DNA of 40,254 nucleotides from a virus (Duplodnaviria; Caudoviricetes): positions 1-40,254 of IMG/VR virus record IMGVR_UViG_3300027819_000027, one strand, 5' to 3'. The number at the start of each line of letters is the position of its first letter. The first letter of the stretch is position 1. Of this stretch, positions 782 through 35,990 are shown piece after piece. The notes below the pieces were generated by a model. It worked only from the letters and a program-made list of their open reading frames with translations, had not been told where the DNA came from and did no database searches. Position numbers and translations under genes: made by a program.

Positions 782-2255
782 ACTTGATGTAACGATGAGC
801 TATCCAGCGGGAAACTTCATCCGTGACCGGCAGACGCGCCCCCCAGTTCATCCCGCTAGATGGATCACAACCGAACTTTGCTTTGTAGGAATACAAGCTC
901 CATCCAAAACAACCCCCACGGCCTTGCTTCATGCCGTGATTCGCCGCATAGTGATTAAGTTGTGAAAGGAAATATTGTTTTTGCGCTACGGAGTATTCCT
1001 TCCGCGCCCTGCGCTGAACTGCCGTCAAGTCCCCTTCCGCCACTTCAATTTCTGGTTTACGCTCCGGCAACAATCCGCAGGCCGGGCAGCGATTCACACC
1101 AACAGGCTTTAGGTAAGCGCATGACGGGCATACTTTCGGTAGCTTGGGCTTGGGCGTTGATTCTGATTTTTTCTTTTTCCCGTCATCCAGAATATCAAAT
1201 TGGAAGTCATCTGGAAAGCCAAGCCTTTCTGCGTTGCCGCCAAAATCTAAAATGACCGCTTGTTCTTTCCCTGGCGATAACCTTAACGCCCTGCCGGTGG
1301 CCTGTATCCATTTCGTTGGTGACTTCGTAGAAAGGGCGAAAGCGCAAACTTCCACGCCTGGATAATCAAAACCCGCGACGAGAATTTCAACACTACATAA
1401 AACCATCGTTTCTCCATACATAAACTCTTTTATTTTTACGTCACGCTCTGAACTCTCATAGGCATTGACCTGATCGGCCTTAATCCCTGCGGCGCAGAAT
1501 TGCGCTGATAAATGCTTTCCGTGTGCAACATTGACACAAAATATAATTGTTTTCTTATTGGGGGTTAATTTTAGCCAAGTTTTAACAACATCCCCTACGA
1601 TGTCGGCCTTATCAAACGTGGAACTTAGTGATGCCTCTGTGTACTCCCCCGCCACAACTTTTAATTTAGAAAGATCGGCAATCGTTGGCCCATAAATTAT
1701 GTAAGGGCATAAATATCCTTCTGTAATTAATTGTTTCATGGGATAGGGTTGAATATGAGTTTCAAAGTGTTTCCCCAGCCCCTTAGTAAATGGGGTTGCA
1801 GACAAACCGATAATATACGAATCGGGATTATCTTTCATAATCTTTTTATGTGTTTCCGTTAATACATGGCATTCGTCTATAATTATCAAAGCGCATCCCC
1901 CCGGGCAGCCCCTTGTGCGGAGTGTTGCAACGCTACATACTTGCACTGGCTGGTCTATATTAAATCGCGGATTATTCGATTGAATCAGGCCAGCCGGTAT
2001 TCCGTAACTGTGAAATAAATCCGTTGCTTGTTCGGCGAGAATAATCCTATGAACAATAAACAAAACTTTATTATTCTTCGCCAATGCTTGCTTAACAACT
2101 TGTGCTGCCAATACTGTCTTCCCAAAAGAACAGGCCGCCTGTAAAATCACTCTTTTGTGTTTTGACATTGCCATTTTTAATTCAACAATCGCTTGAGTTT
2201 GGAATGACTTAAGCTCTAAATCTTTAACTTTCATAACCGCTGGATAATATTTCAT
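717..2255 (-). CDS. Superfamily 2 (DExH, RadD/YejH-like) helicase with zinc finger
   Basis: Q motif, ACSFGKT, IIIDECH, GLSATP, GFDYP, QATGRALR, CPSC...CPAC. Confidence 0.92.
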   Translation of the reverse strand: MKYYPAVMKVKDLELKSFQTQAIVELKMAMSKHKRVILQAACSFGKTVLAAQVVKQALAKNNKVLFIVHRIILAEQATDLFHSYGIPAGLIQSNNPRFNIDQPVQVCSVATLRTRGCPGGCALIIIDECHVLTETHKKIMKDNPDSYIIGLSATPFTKGLGKHFETHIQPYPMKQLITEGYLCPYIIYGPTIADLSKLKVVAGEYTEASLSSTFDKADIVGDVVKTWLKLTPNKKTIIFCVNVAHGKHLSAQFCAAGIKADQVNAYESSERDVKIKEFMYGETMVLCSVEILVAGFDYPGVEVCAFALSTKSPTKWIQATGRALRLSPGKEQAVILDFGGNAERLGFPDDFQFDILDDGKKKKSESTPKPKLPKVCPSCAYLKPVGVNRCPACGLLPERKPEIEVAEGDLTAVQRRARKEYSVAQKQYFLSQLNHYAANHGMKQGRGGCFGWSLYSYKAKFGCDPSSGMNWGARLPVTDEVSRWIAHRYIKFAKGRELSIKGGQNAGSQAIR

Positions 2256-2920
2256 AAGCTAAGTGACGGTTGAAATGGCATTTCTAACCGCGATCCTTTC
2301 CTTTTATTTTCGACTGCCCACATCGGTTGCAGATTTTTCAAGTTCCATGCTCTTTTGAAATCCAAATCCTCGGTAGTTTCAAAATTATGAACCGCCAAGG
2401 GGATTTTGTGGTCAATGTGCCAATCGCCATAATTGGCCCAAGACATACCTTCAGTAAATTGCTCTTCAAGATGGCTCTGTAAATCATAAAGCGTATAACC
2501 AACCAGCAATTCCCAAGTTCTATTTCTCCTATTGCCTTGAAGATATCTTCGGGTAGCATTGCGCATACAAATATTTAATTTACCCTTCGGAGTTTGATAT
2601 TTTTTTAAAAAAGCCTTTTTGTCAGTTGATTTCTTTTTTTCAGGATTTAATTTTACCCAATTTAAAATTAATTCCTTATGGTGTTCAAGATTATTCGTTC
2701 TCCATTTTTTATTGCCGAGGCTAACCTTCCCCTTGTTATTTTCCTTCCATTGCTTTGATTTTTCCATTATTCGGTTTTTATATTCTTGCGTACCATCTTG
2801 ATAATATAATCTTCTACATAGTTTACATTGCCCCCAAGTAGATATAAAACCGCTTTTTCTTTTATATTTGCCAAATTCATCAATGGGCTTTATTTCCCCG
2901 CACTTTGTGCATTTTCTCAT
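2252..2920 (-). CDS. Free-standing HNH homing endonuclease
   Basis: N-terminal CTKC...CKLC; WHIDHKIP...NLQPMWAVEN; AT-rich; inserted between primase and helicase. Confidence 0.85.
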   Translation of the reverse strand: MRKCTKCGEIKPIDEFGKYKRKSGFISTWGQCKLCRRLYYQDGTQEYKNRIMEKSKQWKENNKGKVSLGNKKWRTNNLEHHKELILNWVKLNPEKKKSTDKKAFLKKYQTPKGKLNICMRNATRRYLQGNRRNRTWELLVGYTLYDLQSHLEEQFTEGMSWANYGDWHIDHKIPLAVHNFETTEDLDFKRAWNLKNLQPMWAVENKRKGSRLEMPFQPSLSL

Positions 2921-23526: not shown

Positions 23527-24360
23527 TCATACTCCCTGTGGTTGCCAGATAGGACGTGTGCCTAGTTTATACTCTCTTGTGTAAATCTCCATTTTGGAAC
23601 TCCGTTCGTGATTCTTTTTTAAATCCTCCGTAACTGCAATCGTCGCCCAATCGTCGGGATATTGGATCATTGCCTCCAATAGTCCGTCTGAAAAGTTTAA
23701 CAATATTCCCGGATGGTTTCTTATCTCTTCTGAAAGGTATTGAGTTTGCAAAACCATAGAAGCATTGGTGATATAGTCAATGCCATTGGCTCTGACAATT
23801 ATCATGTTATCAAAAGCTACTTTCTGCTCGCCGGTTACATGGGTGAAGTTAAGGAATGACCCCTCACAGCCAAAATACGCAACCGTCCCATACCCCATTT
23901 TGACGAATAAGTTAGCCGCACGGCATACCGCAGTCGGCCCCCCGCCTATCCCATTCTCTTGGTCGCATTCAAACATATTGAAAACGCGGATTTGCTCTTT
24001 CTGAAACTGGTTGAACTGCCTGCGATGCACAAACGTCGCGAATACCGCCCCCTTTACCAAATCACCAGTCTTAAACTCGCGGCGGCTGGCGTCTATTGCG
24101 TACATATAGCAAGGGATCCCATTATCGGATAAATAACCGGCGGTATCATTAACGGCATAAATATCGCCTGGCCATTTTCGGAGAATATCTAATCTCAGGG
24201 GAAGTCCGGGGCCGCCACCACAAACCGCCACAGGAGGTAGAATTTCTTCACTCCATCGGACTTTTGGATATTTCTGCGCCTTCCGGTGGTTTATAGCCAG
24301 TTGCTCAATATCGGTGTTGCACTGAGCAACCATGTTTATTCTATACGGGGTCATGCACAC
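23527..24360 (-). CDS. Maf/DUF115(MptE-like)-family transferase-like protein
   Basis: VAVCGGGPGL...IYAVN...GGGPTA...MGY...YFGCEGS pattern. Confidence 0.6.
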   Translation of the reverse strand: MCMTPYRINMVAQCNTDIEQLAINHRKAQKYPKVRWSEEILPPVAVCGGGPGLPLRLDILRKWPGDIYAVNDTAGYLSDNGIPCYMYAIDASRREFKTGDLVKGAVFATFVHRRQFNQFQKEQIRVFNMFECDQENGIGGGPTAVCRAANLFVKMGYGTVAYFGCEGSFLNFTHVTGEQKVAFDNMIIVRANGIDYITNASMVLQTQYLSEEIRNHPGILLNFSDGLLEAMIQYPDDWATIAVTEDLKKNHERSSKMEIYTREYKLGTRPIWQPQGV

Positions 24361-25889
24361 ACCGTCCTATTGACCATGCCACGCGCGACGTTGCGCCGAT
24401 TCTCTATGGCTGGCCGTTTCTTACCGGCAATAAAACTGCCGATACTCTTTTCAAGATTTGGGAAAACCTGATAGATCGCTTTCGATAACCTGCATGTGTT
24501 GATAATCGCTTTCTGCTTCAAGCCCTGGCCGGGATACATCGTTTCCAGATTGTGCCTGCCGATCTCATAAGAAACCTCAGACATCTTGGCAACAAACTCA
24601 GGGCTATACTTGAAAAAGAACTCCTCCTGAATATAGGTGTCATCGTACATATATCTTTGAGAAAGGGTGCTGACAGCGTAGGGATTCTCTGCATTCTGGT
24701 AGAGAGAGACGCCGCAGTCCTGATACCTGGGATTCAGCCAGTAATCCTTGAAACCTCCCTGAAGGACATACTGCTGATAAATCTCCGTCCCAGGGAAGGG
24801 AACAATCGAACCGGAACCGTTAAACATATGGGTCACATCCCAAAGCTCATATATCATGTTTAACGTGTTCTGAAGGCTCTCCACCGTCTCCCAGGGGAAC
24901 CCGAACATCAGGTTCACCCCAACTTGCAAACCGGCTGCGTGGGCTGTCTTACAAGCCGAGATGTTCTTTTCTACCGTCGTTCCCTTGCAGGTTCTTTTTA
25001 GAGTTTCGGGATCGCCGCTTTCAATGCCAAATATGACCATATAGCAACCGGCATCTTTCATCATCGAAGCCATTTCCTTTGTCATCATGTCGGCGCGTGT
25101 CCATGCCTGCCAGGTAACTTTCGGGGTAATTTTCTTTATCCCGTCGCAGAACTCGGCAACGTGCCTCTTGTTCATCGTGAAACAGTCGTCGGCTACAACG
25201 AACTGACGCACGCCGTAATTATCAACACGGTTTTGAATGTCTGCCATTACCTGGGGGATGGGGTTAAACGTCGTCTTTTGGCCATAGACCTGATAATCAC
25301 AGAAGGTACACTTTCCGGGGCAACCTCTACTTGTATAAATCCGGTGGATTCCCTTCAATAGTCCGTCGCCTTCAAGCCGGAACCGCTCAATATCAAACGG
25401 GCTGAAATCAGGATCGGGCAAAGTTGAAAGGTCTTTTATCCGAGGACGCGGTTCATTCCGCACGATATTCCCATCAGTTCCACGATAGGTAATGCCGAGA
25501 ATGTCCTTAAGGTCTTTGCCTTGAAGGTATTCCCTTAATGTTTCTTCGCCTTCATTTCTGACGACAATATCAACGCCATGTTCGATCGCTTCTCGATCGC
25601 AGGTCGTAACGTGCGTTCCTCCGGCGATGACAAGAATCCCCTCTTTCTTCAGTCGCTTTACAAGGTCGTAAACCTTTAATATCTGCATGGTGAGCATGGA
25701 GATACCAACGATGTCCGGTTGATATTCTCGCGCTACTTCCATGAAGTAGTCATTGCTCAGTGGCTGCTTGAACGTGCTTTCTTCGATCCTGACTTCATAG
25801 CCGTTTTCTTTGAATATCGCCGCTATCATAGCAAGCGAATGGGGCATCTCAGACATCGAACTCGGATAGAGAAGAAGTGCCTTACGCAT
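24351..25889 (-). CDS. Cobalamin-binding radical SAM protein (class B methyltransferase-like)
   Basis: PHSLAMIAA...PDIVGIS...IAGGTH B12 domain; TSRGCPGKCTFC; FGIESG; MFGFPWET. Confidence 0.92.
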   Translation of the reverse strand: MRKALLLYPSSMSEMPHSLAMIAAIFKENGYEVRIEESTFKQPLSNDYFMEVAREYQPDIVGISMLTMQILKVYDLVKRLKKEGILVIAGGTHVTTCDREAIEHGVDIVVRNEGEETLREYLQGKDLKDILGITYRGTDGNIVRNEPRPRIKDLSTLPDPDFSPFDIERFRLEGDGLLKGIHRIYTSRGCPGKCTFCDYQVYGQKTTFNPIPQVMADIQNRVDNYGVRQFVVADDCFTMNKRHVAEFCDGIKKITPKVTWQAWTRADMMTKEMASMMKDAGCYMVIFGIESGDPETLKRTCKGTTVEKNISACKTAHAAGLQVGVNLMFGFPWETVESLQNTLNMIYELWDVTHMFNGSGSIVPFPGTEIYQQYVLQGGFKDYWLNPRYQDCGVSLYQNAENPYAVSTLSQRYMYDDTYIQEEFFFKYSPEFVAKMSEVSYEIGRHNLETMYPGQGLKQKAIINTCRLSKAIYQVFPNLEKSIGSFIAGKKRPAIENRRNVARGMVNRTVCA

Positions 25890-26790
25890 GAATCTCCTCC
25901 TGATTTGAAGTGATTTGACCTACTTTGCGGGTAGGGTTGTTGGCGTAAAGCAATACTTCAGGGTTGTAGTTCGTCTGGTCACAATGTCGGCAGATGTAGT
26001 CGTTAAACATTCCGGTTTGGTGCGCCAGCCGAAGCGCCTTGTAAGCCGCCCCCTTGTAAACCTCTTCAATGGTCTGGTGGTTCAGGTCGCCCAGGACAAT
26101 CTGACGGTGAATGTCCCAACAGCAGGGGCTTACCTGTCCGCTGGCATGGACATACATCGGCCCGTTTTCTGGTCTGCCGCAGGTTGTCTGCCTTGTGCTG
26201 TCAATTTTTCGGTAATCCCTTCCCTGTACCCAATTATGAGGCTCCCAAACGAAAACCTCATCAAGTTTTGGCTCCCACATTTCTATCCAATCATTCTTTT
26301 CATGCTTGTTTAAATCAGTCTGGACGAAAAGACCGATAGTGTAGGGATGCCCATTCTTGTACTGCAAGAATCCAAGGATGTTTTTCATTGAGTCAAAGTG
26401 CTTGACTTTGCCCCGGTGAAAAGCTTCATAGGTTTTCTGAGTATGCCCGTAAATGCTTAACTTTAAAATATCAATGTACTTTATGACGTTGGCCCACTTG
26501 TCAGGCGTCATGTGAAAGGCTGTAGTCGAGACGAATATCTTCGCCTTTGGCAACTTCTCCCGGATAAAAGCAAACCGGTCAAAGAGGTTCTTGTCAAGAA
26601 AGCACTCACCAAAACCGCAGGTGTCCACGGATTCCAATTCATACTGAGCAGCGTCGTCAATAATCTTCTTGAACAAGCCCATGTCCATCGCCTGTAACTT
26701 CTGTGTGAATTTCTCACGGGGGCAGATAACACAATGAGCATCACATATGTTGGTGGTTTCTATAATGATCTGTTTATTCCGTAACTCCAT
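25882..26790 (-). CDS. Radical SAM protein with SPASM/twitch domain
   Basis: ETTNICDAHCVIC; GFGE; CGRP...GQVSPCCWD...CRHC. Confidence 0.92.
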   Translation of the reverse strand: MELRNKQIIIETTNICDAHCVICPREKFTQKLQAMDMGLFKKIIDDAAQYELESVDTCGFGECFLDKNLFDRFAFIREKLPKAKIFVSTTAFHMTPDKWANVIKYIDILKLSIYGHTQKTYEAFHRGKVKHFDSMKNILGFLQYKNGHPYTIGLFVQTDLNKHEKNDWIEMWEPKLDEVFVWEPHNWVQGRDYRKIDSTRQTTCGRPENGPMYVHASGQVSPCCWDIHRQIVLGDLNHQTIEEVYKGAAYKALRLAHQTGMFNDYICRHCDQTNYNPEVLLYANNPTRKVGQITSNQEEIHA

Positions 26791-28432: not shown

Positions 28433-30517
28433 TTAAGCAGCCGACGAAATCCTGCAAGCCCAACCCGGATAGATGGTCTTCTGGCCAAACAGAACGTCGA
28501 TACGGCAGGGGAAACGATCATTGACAATATCAAAGTTTCTGACCACCCGGAGCGAGATGCCGTCAAAAACCTCCCTGGCCGCAAAATCTACACCCTTCGG
28601 CAATTCAAGATCGGCGCTGACAAAGGTAAACGCATCTTTGTGAAAGACCAAGTTCTGCCGGAACGCGGTATTTGATGTGCCGACGCCACCCGATGTAAGG
28701 AAAACGACCGTTGCCGTCGTGGAGCTGGTGCTGACAACGCAGTTTTGCTTGGCGCCGGACTTGTAGGGAGTGGGGCTGACAGCTACTGTCCACGTTGAAG
28801 CAGCGGTTGCTACCTGGGCAGCCGTGATTGACCACTGCTTTAGATTGCCCATAGTGACTTTGGTTTCCGGGTTCACATCATAGACACCAGCAATGGTGAA
28901 GATGTCGCCGGCAGACTTCGTGTCGCTTGCGGTTACTGCTGACAGAACGATAGTCGCTGTGCCATTAGTAATAGACCCGGTATCGGTCGTTTCACCAGTA
29001 GTAATAACGCCGACAGTATGAACCGGCGTCATTTCGGATTCGTAGAACTTGAACCCATAGACCTGGCCCAAAAGCCCGGTGTCGTACTGCTTGGAAATCT
29101 CCGCGGCTGGGTTGAAGATGTTATAGCCTGCCGTAATGATGCTGTTTGCGGCCAGCGCATCAACCATTGCCATCCGGTCAGAAGCCGGAGCCAAGTTCTG
29201 CGAAAGCTTGGCACGGGCGGCAAGCAGGACAGCCAACGTCGGGGCCGTGCTGTAATCGGTCGCGCTCGTGTGGACGTGGTTAGCAACATCTGGATAGCAA
29301 GCCGCAATAACGGTCTTGTCCACTTCAGCGGCCAGCCTTGACATTGCCGGGTTGAGTATCCGGTCTGCGAAATCATCCAGGGAAAGGGTAAGTTCCGCAG
29401 AACTGAAATTGATGTCAACGCCTCTCTGGGTCGCCAGCGTCAAGGTCTGTGTCGTTTCCGTCACATCCTGGGTATCCATGATGGCTCCACTACGGACAGT
29501 GAACTGATTCGGCTCCCGAATAAGCAAGGTTCCGCCGTTCTTGGCGCCTGACCTTGCGAACCGGTCATCATACTGTTTGTTAATCATCTTGGTGAAGACA
29601 AGATTATTGTGCAAACCTTTATATTCAAATGAGTTCGTTACTCTCACCCCGCCTTTCGGCTGCTGCATATTTCTATGCAGAGTAGACTATATCACCACCC
29701 ACGAGGGGTGCGCTGCGCTTCGAGTCACTTGACTCTACTCCCATGACGGGATAGTCGTTACAGGTTACACTATGAGGGCAAACTCCGTTGTTTTTAACCT
29801 TACCCCATTGGCAGTTCCAACAAAGAACTTGAAACCCCTCTGGAAAGTTATTTTTAATTAACCATCTATAAAATCTGGTGCCGCCAGTTTTTATTCCTGT
29901 TGATCTTCTGTGTTCAGCACCATCATTATTTATATGGTCGATAGTTAAAAACATCTCTTCTGCCTCTCCACAACAAGCACACTGGTATCCATAAGCATCG
30001 TAAACAGCGTCTTTAAGTTTTTTATTCGCAATTCTGACTTTTTTAGCCATCTTAGCGTTAAACTCAACACGCTCATTCTCACTCATGGAATCTATTTTGT
30101 CATGCCAACGATTCTTCATCTTTTCCCTGTATCTGTTCCCTTCTTTGGCACGCCATTCCCTGTTGTAGATATTGTAGCAAGACCTACATCTAAACTGCAT
30201 GGATAATTTACCATTGCTTTTTATCCGATATGGCAAGTAATCGCTTAATGGTTTGGTTATCCCGCATTTAGTGCATTCCCTCACAGTGTCTTCCTTCGGT
30301 ATTACCATATAGATACATCTCCTTGCAGTGATTAGTTATTGTGTAAGTATCACTTTTATGGTTATTATGCAAGAAGTTATTTATCATATCTACTTAGGCT
30401 TCCACCGAGTTCACAGCGTTCTTCGACATACATTGCTGTATGAAGCGACCTTTATTTGATCGCCAGGGCTTTCCTGGTGATATCGCCTGAGCTTAAAGTT
30501 TTTATGGTATTAGCCAT
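28433..30517 (-). CDS. Major capsid protein (P22 coat family), spliced: exon 1 30459-30517, exon 2 28433-29615, 413 aa
   Basis: AGGAGG RBS; joined frame MANTIKTLSSGDITRKALA-I-LHNNLVFTK; NLVFHKDAF, CRIDVLFG. Confidence 0.9.
29616..30458 (-). mobile_element. Group I self-splicing intron (843 nt) in the capsid gene
   Basis: P1 GCGAU/GUCGC with U-G at the 5' splice site; P3 GCUGUG/CGCAGC; P7 GACUA/UAGUC; terminal G; P10 CAAA/UUUG; removal restores the frame. Confidence 0.9.
29673..30308 (-). CDS. Intron-encoded HNH homing endonuclease
   Basis: CTKC...CRSC; CACC...LTIDHINNDG...QVLCWNC; AGGAG RBS. Confidence 0.88.
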   Translation of the reverse strand: MVIPKEDTVRECTKCGITKPLSDYLPYRIKSNGKLSMQFRCRSCYNIYNREWRAKEGNRYREKMKNRWHDKIDSMSENERVEFNAKMAKKVRIANKKLKDAVYDAYGYQCACCGEAEEMFLTIDHINNDGAEHRRSTGIKTGGTRFYRWLIKNNFPEGFQVLCWNCQWGKVKNNGVCPHSVTCNDYPVMGVESSDSKRSAPLVGGDIVYSA

Positions 30518-31360: not shown

Positions 31361-33415
31361 TTATTGCATCTGTGGCGGAACCATTCCACCCATTAATTCA
31401 GGTGGTAAGTTTCCTTCCATTTTTGGAGGGGTGCCAAGTGAAGGTGAGGGGGTGCCTTGTCCTCCACCTGGGGGTTGCCCCTGCATTTCTAGCGCCTGGC
31501 TTAGTGCTTCCATTTCTAGTCGATACTGCTCCTGCTGTTCACCCACCTCGGCGGCAGATGCTTTGGCGAGGTTCAGGAGTATCTCGCTTCCTGTTTTCGT
31601 CTTGCCGATCCGCAGGGCCTCTATTTCTTCTTCTAATTTCTGAATCTGCAACTGTTGTTCGGGATCGGGGCCGTTATCCTTTGGAGCAAGCCGCTCGGCT
31701 ATTTTCTCGGAACCCGGCCAATCCATGTTTTTGATGACTAGATCGCCTATTACACTCATAAGCTGCGGTACGGACTGAATGAGCTTCATCATGCTTTCGG
31801 CGGCCTGCATCCTCTGGGTTGTGTATGAAGGCCCAACAGTGATCGCTATGTCGTACTTCCCAGCAGTGATGTCGTTAATAAGCGTCTGTGACCCATCTGG
31901 ATTGACCACTATCTTATTGATAGGGACAATTCCGTGGCTGTCATCCTCGCCCAATGTTCTGATTGTGCGTTCTGTATCGTAAATGCGGGGAACCAGATCG
32001 ACAAGTATTTTGCCCGTGAATGTTATTGCCCTGCCGTAGTTGTCGATAAACTCAAACATCCCAACATCTGATTCGCGTTGCCGGGCAAAGATGGCCACAC
32101 CTGACCGCTCGTTTGAAGACTGCCCTAATGCCGCGTCATAAATACCGATGGTGTCCTTCATATCAGACGTGGCTTGCTGCGCCATTTGAACGAAAACCGT
32201 ATTGACCGTCGCTCCTTGTTCCCGTTGAGGAGCGCCTCCTGTGTTGGGATCGGGGTTGTAAAGCACATAGGGGAATGGATAATTATTAAGCTGATTCCAC
32301 TGTGACTCATGCCCCTTTATCTGCGCCGGGGTGACTTTATACGGAACCTTCGGCTGTAGTGCCGCCATTTCCATGTTTTGCGAAACGGTATAATTATATA
32401 CCTTTTGGGCGTCTTTGGCGTCTCTAATGAGTGATTTGTAATATGTCTTGCCCTCGATTGTCCAAGTGTCGCCATAGACCGGCACAAGGGGAATATACTT
32501 ACCAGCCCAATCCTTCGGGCCTTCTAAAATCTTGTGGCCTGTAACCAGGCACCACTTTACTTGCTTTGCCTTAACTTTCCGTTCTTTCAGTATCGGGTAC
32601 GGCTGGCCCTGAATCATTAAAGATTTGCCCTTCCCATCGGGGCTAGGGATGATGTGCTCGTTTTTGACCTTTGAGCTGTCGATAGTTGACCCATCCTGGA
32701 GCTTGTAAAGCGTCTTTTCGACAATTTCCTTGTAATAGTATTCCGCAACCCTGATTGTGTCGTCAAGGAGCCATCCGTCAAGGTTTTCACCCGTCCCCTG
32801 CTCTGTCCAGCCAGTTATTTCGTCTTTCGGGAATAACTGCTCGAACTTCGACTTACTCATGGTTTCCGTAACGAAGCACCATTCCAGCCCGCCACGATAG
32901 ACATCATGGACGGTTTCCGGGTCAGGATACACGCAAAACTGGTTCAAGATGCCTTCAATCATAATATCCTGGTCGAAAGTATCATCTTCGGCATATTTTG
33001 TTTCAACACGCCACCAGCCCGGATACCCCCCCGCCACCGCATGCTTAAATGCGTTGTCATAGGCGATTGAAGCGTAACTATTGTACTGGATGTTGCGAAT
33101 ATGACCTTCGATTATCTTGGCCATCGTTGGATCAGAGCTACTATCAACTGGCCTTACCTTAATATCGGGCCTGTTCTGGCGTTGATCGCCCGTCACCTGC
33201 CGCACGAACTTAGGCAACTTGTTAATTGTGAGTCTCGGACGGCCAGCCCTTGCGGTTATTGCCTCTTTATCCCACTGCTCGTCACCGCCGAGGACAAATT
33301 TCAGGTCTTCGATTGCCAGATTTCTATTTCCTACACTTTCGGACATCGAAATCTTGAACCGTTCCCGCAACGTTGCCAGGAAATCTTCGTCTTTTATCTT
33401 CTTGTCTTTTATCAT
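31361..33415 (-). CDS. Portal protein (P22-like)
   Basis: RPRLTINK...RQNRP; YIPLVPVYG; ERSGVAI..RQ; GPSYTTQR. Confidence 0.93.
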   Translation of the reverse strand: MIKDKKIKDEDFLATLRERFKISMSESVGNRNLAIEDLKFVLGGDEQWDKEAITARAGRPRLTINKLPKFVRQVTGDQRQNRPDIKVRPVDSSSDPTMAKIIEGHIRNIQYNSYASIAYDNAFKHAVAGGYPGWWRVETKYAEDDTFDQDIMIEGILNQFCVYPDPETVHDVYRGGLEWCFVTETMSKSKFEQLFPKDEITGWTEQGTGENLDGWLLDDTIRVAEYYYKEIVEKTLYKLQDGSTIDSSKVKNEHIIPSPDGKGKSLMIQGQPYPILKERKVKAKQVKWCLVTGHKILEGPKDWAGKYIPLVPVYGDTWTIEGKTYYKSLIRDAKDAQKVYNYTVSQNMEMAALQPKVPYKVTPAQIKGHESQWNQLNNYPFPYVLYNPDPNTGGAPQREQGATVNTVFVQMAQQATSDMKDTIGIYDAALGQSSNERSGVAIFARQRESDVGMFEFIDNYGRAITFTGKILVDLVPRIYDTERTIRTLGEDDSHGIVPINKIVVNPDGSQTLINDITAGKYDIAITVGPSYTTQRMQAAESMMKLIQSVPQLMSVIGDLVIKNMDWPGSEKIAERLAPKDNGPDPEQQLQIQKLEEEIEALRIGKTKTGSEILLNLAKASAAEVGEQQEQYRLEMEALSQALEMQGQPPGGGQGTPSPSLGTPPKMEGNLPPELMGGMVPPQMQ

Positions 33416-34800
33416 TAAGCCGCCATCCAGTTACTTGTTAAAAACTTGCTTGGGTCAAAGGGTTTAGATACCGCATGCTGCTCATAGCCTACCGCAAAAG
33501 TGATAAACGCCGTCGAAGCATGACTGCACCAGTTATGGAGGTACCGCTGTTTCAATACCTTCTTGTCTTCATCAAATTCTGCCTGAAAATACTCCAAAGC
33601 GTTTATCCCTCGTGCGCACTTTTCCTTATCAAACCAACAACTCGACAAAACATTACGCACCGCAGGGACCTGAACCTGCATGAAAACATCCATGTTCCTC
33701 ATTCGGTTCACTACCAACACCGGCCTGATTCCTATCCGTTCAGCCATCTCCTTCTTGGACATCGCCAACTCCGAATTGGTCAATTCCCGCTGGTTCGCGT
33801 CGTGCGGCATGTGATGGTTGCCGTAAATATAAGGCTTCTCTTTCAGTACCTTCGCGTAATGCTCCAGACCCATCCCAGTGTTTTCATAGTAATCAATAAA
33901 GTGATACGACTTCCCATTCTCCTGCATGAACCAAATCGTCGTAGAATCATCAACGCCCAAATCCCAAAAGGTGTGAACCTCCTGCCCGGTCTGGTGCGGT
34001 ACGTTTGTTATCCGCTTATCAGCACGAGCCTCCCTGATCTGCTTGCCAAAGTATGCCCCCATAATGGCGCCTTCAAAAGAGCACATGTACTCCTGTTGAT
34101 AAAGAGCCTCCCCCAGGTCGTCGCCCCATATTGCAACCAACTCAGTACGAATCCCAGAGAGCTGCTCCTTCGTAAATACAGGAGTCTGGTCAGCCTTCGT
34201 AACCTCCGCAAACCACTTCGGGTCTTGCATCCCATGATCCAACATCGTCTTCGCATGGTTGTTGCCACGGCTCGTCGTTATAAATAAAGCAAAACCGTTG
34301 TTCTCCTCCAAAATGGGCATAATGTACGGCCAACATAACGGATCGGCCAACGCCCACTCCGAAGCAATTATCCCTATCGGCGGCGAACCAACCAAAGCAT
34401 TGAAATTGTCACTCCCTACCAACTGCCACGAGGCGCCGTTCTTGAAACCAATAAACATGTCGTTCTCGCGGGTCTTCTCCCGTATCTCCAAAGGAAAGGC
34501 CTCATCTATCCTACGCTTCCCAGACCGAGGATTCACCGCATCCCATACCGACTTCCTACACTGTGCATACATCGGTAACATGTGCCAGTAATTCCCCACA
34601 CGCTGCACCACCTGTGTCGCTGTGAAATGTAACGCGACATCATCCTTACCTATTCAGCCCCAGCGCCTATGCGCGATTTCAATGGCGCGTTTCCCGCCGC
34701 CTTCCAGGTATAACCATAAGGGCATTTGATCTTCTCTCGGTACCCAGTTGTTTGGAATACGAATCTTGTTGTTCTTCCCTACATAGCCTTGTTTTCGCAT
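33415..34800 (-). CDS. terL: Terminase large subunit with one in-frame TGA (34654-34656) inside Walker A
   Basis: PREDQ..LW, HRRWG*IGKDD, IIASEWA, ITTSRGNNH, WDLGVDD, PHDA; the two listed ORFs are in the same frame. Confidence 0.9.
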
Positions 34801-35218
34801 AGATGCTGAGTTGACTTCACCTCCCTTTTTATTCGATTCCTTACCCTCTACAAAATCCCGCCGTATTACAGGAAACAGGTTCAACAAACCTAATTTCCGA
34901 TTTCCCACATACCCCCCACCTCTTTAGAACTGCTTGCTCTGTGGGTATGGTGGTCCCTCTTTTTACACCAACCCCGGCATCTGGTTGACCCTCATGCCCC
35001 CGGCCTCATCCCGGCAGGTGCTGGCTCGGTATCCAGGGCGTGAGAGTTGATAGAGTTATCAACAGTCTTATCAACAGCGTGTGGATTTGAGTTATCAACC
35101 GGTTTTGTGTTTGTGCTGATGACCATTCCGCCAGCCCCTCGTAACTACCCGATATTATTGCTACGTCCTATAAGTGTACATATGTAAACTTGTGGCACAA
35201 GGCATTGACATCATTGCC

Positions 35219-35656
35219 TTATTTACTTTTTGCTCCCTTTTTGATGCCTGTTGATAACTTTTTGGGCGCGAATGACACAACCTCAACGGCCATAGTGCCG
35301 GAGACACTGACGTTTTGTTCCTGTTTGTCGGTCCAGCCGGCGTTCTTGAGCCAGAATATCGGCCCTGCCACTTGGTTGCCCAGGAGCCGCTGTTCCATGT
35401 GATCGGAGAGGCGCCGCTTGGCTTTTTTTATAGTACCGCTGAACGCATCCTTGCGCTCATAATTCCAGATTGTATCGATATCGCAATCAAGCGCCAGTGC
35501 CATGCCAGAGATTGTTAGGGGTGTGTCAGATGCTTCTCGATCTGAGAAGTACCTATCTATGAGTATTTGGAGTTGTTCTGGTGATTTCCACAATGGGGGA
35601 TGTCCGGTTTTGACTTTTGGCTTGAGTTTATTTAGGGCGGCTTGGTTGATTGGCAT
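35219..35656 (-). CDS. terS: Terminase small subunit (P22 gp3-like)
   Basis: GHPP..KSPEQLQ..ID.YF...PLTISGMALAL...IFWLKN..W.DKQE. Confidence 0.85.
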   Translation of the reverse strand: MPINQAALNKLKPKVKTGHPPLWKSPEQLQILIDRYFSDREASDTPLTISGMALALDCDIDTIWNYERKDAFSGTIKKAKRRLSDHMEQRLLGNQVAGPIFWLKNAGWTDKQEQNVSVSGTMAVEVVSFAPKKLSTGIKKGAKSK

Positions 35657-35657
35657 T

Positions 35658-35990
35658 TTAGCAGCTCCTAAACGCTGGCGTCTTGTTCCCGTTTTTGGCA
35701 TGGATTAGGCGCGCTATGGCCTGGACCTGGGGTATTGTGATGTCTGGGCGGATAAATATGCCGTCGGGCGTCCAGGCTGTTATGCCTAGGTCTCGGCGCA
35801 TATCTAGATGGAGATCGGCGTCGAGGCGCACTAATCCAGTTGACTGGACTGGCACTCGGCAGGGTTGGCTGGGTGTTACATTTTGGGTGTTACATTTTGG
35901 GGGTGTTACAACTGATATTTGGCTGGGTGTTACATTTTGTCGGCGTGTCCGCTGATACTCTGCCATCTCTGTCGCGGTGCGCTGTTTCAT
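35658..35990 (-). CDS. Hypothetical protein with NVTP repeats
   Basis: AEYQRTRR start; first gene of the late operon. Confidence 0.55.
   Translation of the reverse strand: MKQRTATEMAEYQRTRRQNVTPSQISVVTPPKCNTQNVTPSQPCRVPVQSTGLVRLDADLHLDMRRDLGITAWTPDGIFIRPDITIPQVQAIARLIHAKNGNKTPAFRSC
35871..35939. repeat. Four GGGTGTTACA(TTTTG) direct repeats
   Basis: Copies at 35871, 35885, 35901 and 35925. Confidence 0.85.

What the first reader, a model, noticed from the sequence alone, without database searches (positions are those of the whole stretch)
34639..34671. Terminase Walker A carries a 9-nt insert with a stop flanked by two Gly codons: possible ribosomal hop
Seen (minus strand): CAT AGG CGC TGG GGC TGA ATA GGT AAG GAT GAT = HRRW-G-stop-I-G-KDD. 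Removing exactly 9 nt restores HRRWGKDD, and the rest of terL is intact and in frame. Established: translational bypassing (T4 gene 60) uses a take-off codon followed by a stop and a matching landing codon; GGC and GGU are read by the same tRNA-Gly; a short bypass has been proposed in a Streptomyces phage terminase. Simple readthrough would leave three extra residues in the P-loop. Inference: programmed stop-hopping that limits terminase. Alternatives are an intron/intein scar, a defective phage or an assembly error.
Basis: partly seen in the sequence, partly recalled or inferred. Interest (0 to 1): 0.75.

Follow-up and report, generated by a model that had tools for sequence, protein, structure and literature searches.

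The report
Nine-base ribosome stop-hop in terminase
The only DNA-packaging motor gene on this groundwater phage contig is cut inside its ATP-binding loop by nine bases holding a stop codon; related phages carry 4- to 12-base cuts in the same loop flanked by matching codons, so ribosomes likely hop over the stop, a way of reading genes known from very few natural cases.

Summary
Confirmed. terL (33415-34800, minus strand) reads TGG GGC [TGA ATA GGT] AAG in its Walker A loop; a second assembly and a public-run contig (depth 43, possibly the same sample) agree. Variable-gap scans found 7 more stop-led 4-12 nt inserts at this Gly|Lys junction in terL genes 45-65% identical, each GGY...RGY, and 4 distinct inserts two codons upstream where an Arg take-off codon goes with an Arg landing codon that the pattern did not impose. 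Intact copies number about 1,300; a +1/+2 indel control over the next 48 nt gave 1 hit. Phage phiHau3 has GGC [TTA CTC CGGT] AAG at the same junction, and a published UAA variant of it bypasses in E. coli. Near-twin phages (about 90% DNA identity) lack the insert and differ in a 208-bp block ending exactly at it, which keeps the protein but is synonymously saturated, like the T4 gene 60/MobA cassette; no endonuclease gene is adjacent here. Best reading: peptidyl-tRNA-Gly stop-hop (about 0.72), untested for this gene. Regulation is not shown and no stimulatory signal was found. This scan noted the same class earlier on other DNA.

The parts
33415..34800 (-). terL, large terminase; 461 codons including the internal TGA and the 9-nt gap; only copy on the contig
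   Evidence: tblastn of the genome: one hit; phrog_2
34657..34659 (-). Gly48 codon GGC, inferred take-off codon
   Evidence: sequence; GGY in 8 of 8 stop-led Gly-type inserts (GGY is also 80% of intact copies, so not enriched)
34648..34656 (-). 9-nt coding gap TGA ATA GGT: in-frame stop, one codon, inferred landing codon GGT
   Evidence: absent from 91 of 95 related loci
34645..34647 (-). AAG, Walker A lysine, inferred resume codon
   Evidence: K49 invariant in 85 intact homologues; aligned to the P74-26 Walker A Lys
34651..34858 (-). 208-bp exchanged block (leader, first 48 codons of terL, TGA ATA), replacing 167 bp in near-twin phages; synonymously saturated, protein conserved, third-position bias unlike the rest of terL
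   Evidence: (joint 34650-34859 in runs X5, X8)
34859..35218 (.). terS-terL spacer shared with the insert-free twins; no nuclease ORF or remnant detected
35219..35701 (-). terS, small terminase
   Evidence: PF16677, phrog_606
31361..33415 (-). P22-like portal, intact, directly downstream
   Evidence: PF16510
29673..30308 (-). free-standing HNH endonuclease 4.3 kb downstream; same PHROG family (2255) as the nuclease directly upstream of terL in insert-bearing locus L105; link to the insert not shown
   Evidence: (36% over 92 aa, E 1e-13)

Best explanation
The terL gene carries a 9-nt gap with an in-frame TGA between the Gly and Lys codons of Walker A, and ribosomes likely make full-length terminase by a stop-hop: with the stop in the A site, peptidyl-tRNA-Gly would leave GGC, slide 9 nt, re-pair at GGU and resume at AAG, so that the loop reads HRRWGKDD. 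Most ribosomes would terminate and release a 48-residue peptide. The gap likely arrived with a recoded copy of the first 48 codons as one imported block, probably the footprint of a homing-endonuclease cassette whose nuclease gene is no longer adjacent; its first use would be to break the nuclease's DNA target without changing the protein. Shown: the gap, the block exchange, recurrence and codon covariation in relatives. Inferred: the hop, its efficiency, the nuclease origin.
For: (1) Recurrence at the Gly|Lys junction: L097 GGT[TGAGGC]AAA, L099 GGC[TGAGT]AAG, L100 GGC[TGACTGGT]AAA, L102 GGT[TAGC]AAA, L103 GGC[TGACTAAGC]AAA, L105 GGC[TGACTGAAAGGC]AAA, L108 GGC[TGACTTGGC]AAA; proteins 45-65% identical to the window's. 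With the window, 8 of 8 begin with an in-frame stop and end in GGY (5) or AGY (3); the pattern asked for neither. (2) Covariation: inserts placed after the second Arg of HRR end in an Arg codon: L372 CGC[TGACCGA], L378 CGA[TAGA], L376 CGA[TTATTCGG], L381=L382 CGA[TTACCGG]. (3) Lengths 4-12 nt, in and out of frame, so one shared mechanism must be blind to frame; 5 of 5 short in-frame inserts carry a stop and no short sense-only insert was found. (4) Site specificity: about 1,300 intact stretches, 0 of 120 read had a stop or off-frame spacer; +1/+2 indels in the next 48 nt: 1 hit, error-like. (5) Selection on broken genes: L104/L106, both shifted +1 at this junction, dN 0.08, dS 0.98; L246/L248, same 43-nt insert, dN 0.008, dS 0.30; L103/L105 both keep 399-codon downstream frames at pN 0.17, pS 0.77. 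(6) phiHau3 g6/g7 is TGG GGC [TTACTCCGGT] AAG GAC, same junction and same GGC/GGT pair; its UAA variant gave a recoded product in E. coli and the bypass junction peptide by MS (PMC10732093 sections 3.5, 3.6). (7) Block: window versus L018, synonymous differences 29 of 37 in codons 1-47 against 99 of 361 downstream (Fisher 1.6e-9), 41 of 47 residues kept; third-position A/C 14 of 21 against 53 of 188 downstream (8e-4); 8 of 8 control pairs of like closeness show no such saturation. T4-family HomR shows the same pattern, 67-81% DNA identity (10.1101/2022.08.31.505936 Results); here 70%.
Against: No protein, ribosome or RNA data for this gene. This exact insert is known from one haplotype, possibly one sample, so persistence under selection in this lineage is not shown; the low dN/dS against L018 (0.022/0.53) may predate the insert. 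No stimulatory signal: junction fold z 0.22; anti-SD pairing and local structure not enriched over 179 intact controls (p 0.08-0.9), so the hop may be only the low unstimulated kind. No nuclease next to terL in the window; adjacency in relatives is weak, 2 of 8 stop-led Gly loci against 2 of 112 (p 0.02) or 5 of 115 (p 0.07) controls. Three landings mismatch at position 1 (AGY), as does L378 (AGA), and L106 (GGT[TGTC]AAA) has no stop and no good landing codon. Several inserts share TGACT and may not be independent. Genome completeness is not shown (no terminal repeat).
Confidence: 0.72

Rival explanations
1. Dead allele: the block came in by recombination or nuclease-driven conversion and inactivated terL; this phage is defective or is packaged by a co-infecting relative's terminase.
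For: One haplotype only; insert-free twins exist (L018, L019, runs X5, X8); no stimulatory signal; contig not shown to be complete.
Against: Both sides of the gap and the portal, scaffold and coat genes are intact; only terL copy; inserts in relatives sit in the same loop with matched flanking codons, and pairs of broken genes show dN far below dS, which random inactivation does not predict.
Confidence: 0.13
2. UGA readthrough (Trp, Sec or a host that reads UGA as sense) gives an active terminase with three extra residues in the P-loop.
For: The gap is in frame here and in L097, L103, L105, L108; no stop-led insert has U at +4 (0 of 10), the strongest termination context (recalled, no call). 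One 39-nt in-frame hairpin insert has no stop (L247).
Against: TGA ends 13 of 35 long ORFs of this phage, so the code is standard; H, R, R, G, K, D are invariant in 85 homologues and no short sense-only insert was found; out-of-frame relatives (4, 5, 7, 8 nt) cannot be read through; readthrough does not explain matched landing codons.
Confidence: 0.08
3. The gap is removed from the RNA (micro-intron cut by a protein nuclease and ligase), or the gene is made as two polypeptides with re-initiation before the lysine.
For: Inserts can be drawn as GG|Y...G|Y; ATA (window) and CTG (L105) sit in frame after the stop.
Against: 4-12 nt cannot hold a self-splicing intron; no Rfam match near gathering score; the ends follow the identity of the last codon (Gly or Arg), not a fixed splice motif; most inserts have no in-frame start codon; a split would cut the P-loop in two.
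Confidence: 0.05
4. Assembly or sequencing error.
For: No raw reads seen; the supporting contigs may come from one sample.
Against: Two assemblies and a Logan contig at depth 42.6 agree; same-geometry inserts recur in other phages.
Confidence: 0.02

Closest known systems
Streptomyces phage phiHau3 terminase g6/g7 bypass (with StrepC.1 and S. catenulae prophages); PMC10732093, Smith et al. 2013 as cited there
   Same: Same junction (Walker A WG|KD), same take-off GGC, landing GGT and resume AAG; short gap (10 versus 9 nt); an engineered UAA version bypasses in E. coli.
   Different: Natural trigger is a stop (UGA), not the rare UUA; gap is in frame; a different TerL family (HRRxGKD, P22-like head genes, 48% GC phage); one gap, not two; no internal Shine-Dalgarno or stem-loop found; no link to a host developmental tRNA.
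Phage T4 gene 60 bypass and the MobA cassette family (10.1101/2022.08.31.505936)
   Same: Gly take-off, stop in the A site, wobble-matched landing (GGU/GGC occurs there); gap at the end of an imported block that recodes the target region (67-81% there, 70% here); near-identical phages without the insert; take-off can shift to a neighbouring codon with the landing codon following; nuclease lost in some members.
   Different: Target is terminase, not topoisomerase; 9 nt, not 20-50; no take-off stem-loop or other enriched signal; no adjacent nuclease in this genome. The 39-43 nt hairpin inserts of L246-L251 at the same terL junction are closer to T4 in anatomy.
Synthetic 'stop-hop' in E. coli (Weiss et al. 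1987 as described in PMC5009743 and 10.1101/2024.12.09.627546)
   Same: [quoted passage not shown]
   Different: Here natural and in an essential gene; 12 nt give one Gly (GGC TGA ATA GGT) where the synthetic case used 9 nt (the 6-nt gap of L097 is the exact counterpart). The 2016 review states that no natural in-frame stop hopping was known.

Membership tests
Programmed translational bypassing (T4 gene 60 / phiHau3 type) | Non-coding gap inside an otherwise intact essential gene, at an invariant position | tested here: met
Programmed translational bypassing (T4 gene 60 / phiHau3 type) | Stop or hungry codon directly after the take-off codon | tested here: met
   TGA in the window; stop in 8 of 8 Gly-type and 2 of 4 Arg-type inserts, TTA in the other 2; L106 and L104 do not fit
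Programmed translational bypassing (T4 gene 60 / phiHau3 type) | Landing codon readable by the take-off tRNA, directly before the resume codon | tested here: met
   GGC/GGT in the window; covaries Gly versus Arg in relatives; 4 of 12 mismatch at position 1. Which tRNA reads which codon is recalled knowledge
Programmed translational bypassing (T4 gene 60 / phiHau3 type) | Stimulatory RNA signals (take-off stem-loop, 5' stem-loop, Shine-Dalgarno-like pairing) | tested here: not met
   fold z 0.22; no enrichment over intact controls; a GGG ends 7 nt before the landing codon but comes from the ordinary Trp-Gly codons
Programmed translational bypassing (T4 gene 60 / phiHau3 type) | Nascent-peptide stimulator | not testable with these tools
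   WG precedes the gap as in Hau3 KGWG (PMC5009743), but L097 and L102 have AG
Programmed translational bypassing (T4 gene 60 / phiHau3 type) | Single protein that lacks the gap's residues, from unspliced mRNA | not testable with these tools
   no protein or RNA data
MobA-type homing-endonuclease bypass cassette | Recoded homologous block ending at the gap, with insert-free near-twins | tested here: met
MobA-type homing-endonuclease bypass cassette | Homing endonuclease gene inside the cassette | tested here: not met
   none in 34801-35218; present upstream of terL in L097 and L105, and in some intact controls
MobA-type homing-endonuclease bypass cassette | Insert protects the DNA from the nuclease | not testable with these tools
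   needs a nicking assay
Alternative genetic code (UGA as sense) | TGA inside many genes and not used as a terminator | tested here: not met
   TGA ends 13 of 35 long ORFs; no tRNA gene on the contig
Self-splicing intron or intein | Catalytic RNA core, or in-frame intein before Cys/Ser/Thr | tested here: not met
   9 nt; next residue is Lys; no Rfam match near threshold
Large terminase (TerL) | N-terminal packaging ATPase with Walker A and C-terminal RNase H-like nuclease, between terS and portal | tested here: met

The most novel reading that the evidence does not exclude
Short stop-hops are a natural, recurrent way of expressing an essential phage gene: the TerL Walker A loop is a hot spot where mobile cassettes leave 4-12 nt gaps that ribosomes cross with no RNA structure, helped perhaps only by the basic HRR(W/A)G nascent peptide. 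This would give the first natural in-frame stop-hops and a graded series (4, 5, 6, 7, 8, 9, 12 nt, then 39-43 nt hairpins; Gly or Arg take-off; stop or UUA trigger) that joins phiHau3 and T4 gene 60 into one continuum, with hop efficiency tying packaging to the host's release-factor state.
Probability: 0.5. Interest if true: 0.85.

Novelty: new variant of a known kind. Interest (0 to 1): 0.7.

Why it matters
Natural bypassing is described for T4 gene 60 and its homologues, Magnusiomyces mitochondria and, as a candidate, three Streptomyces terminases (10.1101/2024.12.09.627546 passage; PMC10732093). The 2016 review says no natural in-frame stop hop was known. This site is such a candidate in an essential gene, and it comes with a natural insert-free twin (L018) and a dozen natural variants that differ in gap length, take-off codon and trigger, so the minimal requirements for short bypassing can be tested directly in a reporter. 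It also means gene callers truncate these terminases past their Walker A lysine. The class has already been noted by this scan in other genomes; what this window adds is the in-frame 9-nt case, the block boundary mapped against a twin, and the Gly-to-Arg covariation.

Tried and rejected
Exact 9-nt stop pattern scan found only this phage. Homologue scans by protein gave no other insert (only the best 80 of 283 metagenome hits were kept). A relaxed stop-led pattern (119 loci read of about 160) gave 60 intact terL, 50 non-terL and 9 already known inserts, nothing new. Rows dropped before counting: L101 (=L379) and L375 are intact genes with a spurious upstream motif match; 16 of 18 genome hits were not terL; L113 (1 nt in a G run, downstream frame only 160 codons) is treated as degraded; L104 (1 nt, possible +1 slip at AAA AGA) and L106 are kept apart as not fitting. 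My intended positional control (gap after HRR) was not empty: it showed a second take-off position, so the claim is 'this loop', not 'one junction'. Shine-Dalgarno and hairpin stimulators: not enriched. The window's 5' block is not clearly closer to other insert-bearing blocks than to intact ones, so a single donor lineage is not shown. No nuclease remnant in the spacer. No RNA holder listed; run X3 does not cover the site; only 4 of 21 listed runs were laid. No cultured close relative: best 49%; those records were not read at the junction. Pfam and a single-sequence PDB search did not recognise the family. Smith et al. 2013 was not available and is cited only through PMC10732093 and PMC5009743.

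Full report
OBSERVATION. The window is one 40,254-bp phage contig with P22-like head genes on the minus strand: terS 35219-35701, terL 33415-34800, portal 31361-33415, coat 28433-29668. terL has one internal stop, TGA at 34656-34654, in TGG GGC TGA ATA GGT AAG GAT GAT, and is the only terL on the contig. A profile of 85 intact homologues, in which H, R, R, G, K and D of this motif are invariant, aligns it to the Walker A of P74-26 TerL; the model of the insert-free twin (mean pLDDT 92) has G48 at the end of the strand-loop-helix P-loop and matches large terminase structures. A second assembly (L001) and a Logan contig at depth 42.6 (X1) carry the same letters; they may be one sample and raw reads were not seen. 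TGA is an ordinary terminator in this genome (13 of 35 long ORFs).

RELATIVES WITHOUT THE GAP. Of 95 loci fetched by protein similarity (the metagenome scan kept the best 80 of 283), 91 read straight through G-K, 2 are this phage and 2 do not reach the site. L018 and L019 are near twins (88-90% DNA over the region). They, and contigs in runs X5 and X8, differ from the window in one block, 34651-34858, 208 bp against 167 bp, whose edge is the first base of the GGT codon. Within the block 41 of 47 residues are kept but 29 of 37 synonymous codons differ, against 99 of 361 downstream (Fisher p 1.6e-9); third positions are A/C in 14 of 21 codons against 53 of 188 downstream (p 8e-4), whereas the L018 block has the downstream bias (5 of 22). 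Eight intact control pairs with downstream identity of 0.89 or more show 4-10 synonymous differences in 23-27 upstream codons; window/L018 shows 20 of 26. So the gap and a recoded 5' end came in as one unit (inference from these counts).

RELATIVES WITH A GAP. A pattern that allowed any 1-30 nt between the Gly and Lys codons gave 10 viral hits: this phage, one spurious match, six stop-led inserts (L097 6 nt, L099 5, L100 8, L102 4, L103 9, L105 12), L106 (TGTC, no stop) and L104 (1 nt). The same pattern on 185,579 genomes gave 18 hits, 2 of them terL: L108 (GGC[TGACTTGGC]AAA, on a contig of a Holophagaceae MAG) and the degraded L113. All 8 stop-led inserts start with TGA or TAG in frame and end in GGY (5) or AGY (3); neither was asked for. 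A 31-60 nt scan gave 6 of 6 true terL genes with 39-43 nt hairpin inserts at the same junction, 5 distinct, ending GGC, GGA or GGT. A scan meant as a positional control, with the gap after HRR, gave 11 hits: 4 of the above, 2 spurious, and 5 new loci with 4 distinct inserts: CGC[TGACCGA]GCT, CGA[TAGA]GCC, CGA[TTATTCGG]GCA, CGA[TTACCGG]GCA twice. When the last codon before the gap is Arg, the last triplet of the gap is an Arg codon. This covariation is what re-pairing of a peptidyl-tRNA predicts; splicing, readthrough and decay do not predict it. A target-site duplication could also give matched ends, but the ends are mostly not identical and vary at codon positions 3 and 1 while position 2 is fixed. 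Background: about 1,300 stored stretches have the intact motif, 0 of the 120 read had a stop or off-frame spacer, and +1/+2 indels anywhere in the next 48 nt gave 1 hit, with several extra-base errors. On a FastTree of 145 downstream proteins, insert-bearing genes are interleaved with intact ones, L018 being 0.02 from the window. Pairs in which both genes are broken stay under purifying selection: L104/L106 dN 0.08, dS 0.98; L246/L248 dN 0.008, dS 0.30; L103/L105 pN 0.17, pS 0.77.

MECHANISM. Shown: gap, block exchange, recurrence, covariation. Inferred: ribosomes stall with UGA in the A site, peptidyl-tRNA-Gly leaves GGC, re-pairs at GGU nine bases on and resumes at the catalytic Lys codon. 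The closest test is phiHau3, whose g6/g7 junction reads TGG GGC [TTACTCCGGT] AAG GAC; with UUA changed to UAA it gave a faint recoded product in E. coli and a junction peptide without the gap residues (PMC10732093, sections 3.4-3.6 read; supplements not opened, and the MS figure is there). Against a strongly programmed event: the junction folds no better than shuffles (z 0.22), and neither anti-SD pairing nor structure is enriched in 8 stop-led loci over 179 intact ones (p 0.08-0.9). None of 10 stop-led inserts has U after the stop; that U strengthens termination is recalled knowledge. Low efficiency might suffice because few TerL molecules are needed per motor (recalled).

ORIGIN. In the T4 family the gap ends a mobile element that replaces the target region by a recoded homologue of 67-81% identity, protects against the MobA nuclease, and persists after nuclease loss (10.1101/2022.08.31.505936; abstract, passages and part 1 of 2 of Results read; its supplements are closed, and the main text does not contain 'terminase'). 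The window block is 70% identical to the twin's and ends at the gap. HNH genes lie directly upstream of terL in L097 and L105, but also in intact genes: 2 of 8 stop-led Gly loci against 2 of 112 scanned controls (p 0.02), or 5 of 115 when three more found by tblastn are added (p 0.07). The window has no nuclease between terS and terL; its HNH at 29673-30308 is of the same family as L105's.

RIVALS. Dead allele (0.13): cannot be excluded for this lineage, which is known from one haplotype. Readthrough with three extra residues (0.08): possible only for in-frame members; no short sense-only insert was found at this junction, though one 39-nt hairpin (L247) is open in frame. RNA excision or split protein (0.05): no intron core, ends follow codon identity. 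Error (0.02).

WHAT IS KNOWN. Six literature searches found no paper on stop-led gaps in terminases outside the Streptomyces UUA cases; the library lacks most subscription journals, and Smith et al. 2013 was seen only as cited. PMC5009743 (passages) says no natural in-frame stop hopping was known and notes the KGWG peptide before the Hau3 site; 10.1101/2024.12.09.627546 (passages) lists gene 60, one phage terminase and Magnusiomyces mitochondria as the cases. Earlier notes of this scan report the same class (1-51 nt gaps in TerL Walker A) in other genomes; none matched this sequence or genome. They are unchecked notes and are not counted as support.

VERDICT. A real, non-random feature that works like phiHau3/T4-type bypassing; it meets the gap, stop and landing criteria, fails the stimulatory-RNA and adjacent-nuclease criteria, and the product is untested. 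New variant of a known kind; interest 0.70.

Noticed in passing
L246-L251 (e.g. L246 minus strand, motif at 2501 of the reversed locus): 39-43 nt strong hairpin inserts (-26 to -39 kcal/mol) at the same Gly|Lys junction in the HRRSGKDE branch of this terL family; L247's is in frame with no stop.
   Followed up: partly
L372, L376, L378, L381, L382 (motif at about 801): Inserts two codons upstream with Arg take-off and Arg landing codons; two distinct ones start with TTA, the phiHau3 trigger, in 53-63% GC loci.
   Followed up: partly
L104 and L106: Close relatives (93% aa) both shifted +1 at the junction by different sequences: GGC A AAA GAT (possible +1 slip at AAA AGA) and GGT TGTC AAA.
   Followed up: partly
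window 34779-34847, minus strand: The imported leader holds a strong Shine-Dalgarno-like AGGGAGGTG about 17 nt before the terL ATG and a short out-of-frame open stretch overlapping the terL start by 22 nt; could be the tail of a lost upstream gene.
   Followed up: no
window 29673-30308 and 2252-2920, minus strand: Two free-standing HNH/endonuclease VII-like genes, one between scaffold and coat, one directly upstream of the helicase.
   Followed up: partly
window 23527-26790, minus strand: Radical SAM/SPASM, B12-binding radical SAM and MptE-like genes inside the structural gene block, between coat and tail accessory genes.
   Followed up: no
window 33415-34650: terL downstream of the gap has G/T-rich third positions unlike terS and portal of the same genome, so terL itself may be a foreign module.
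   Followed up: no
window 35097-35157, minus strand: Weak Rfam hit to Chlorobi-1 RNA (17.6 bits, gathering 50, E 0.22) in the terS-terL spacer; probably chance.
   Followed up: no
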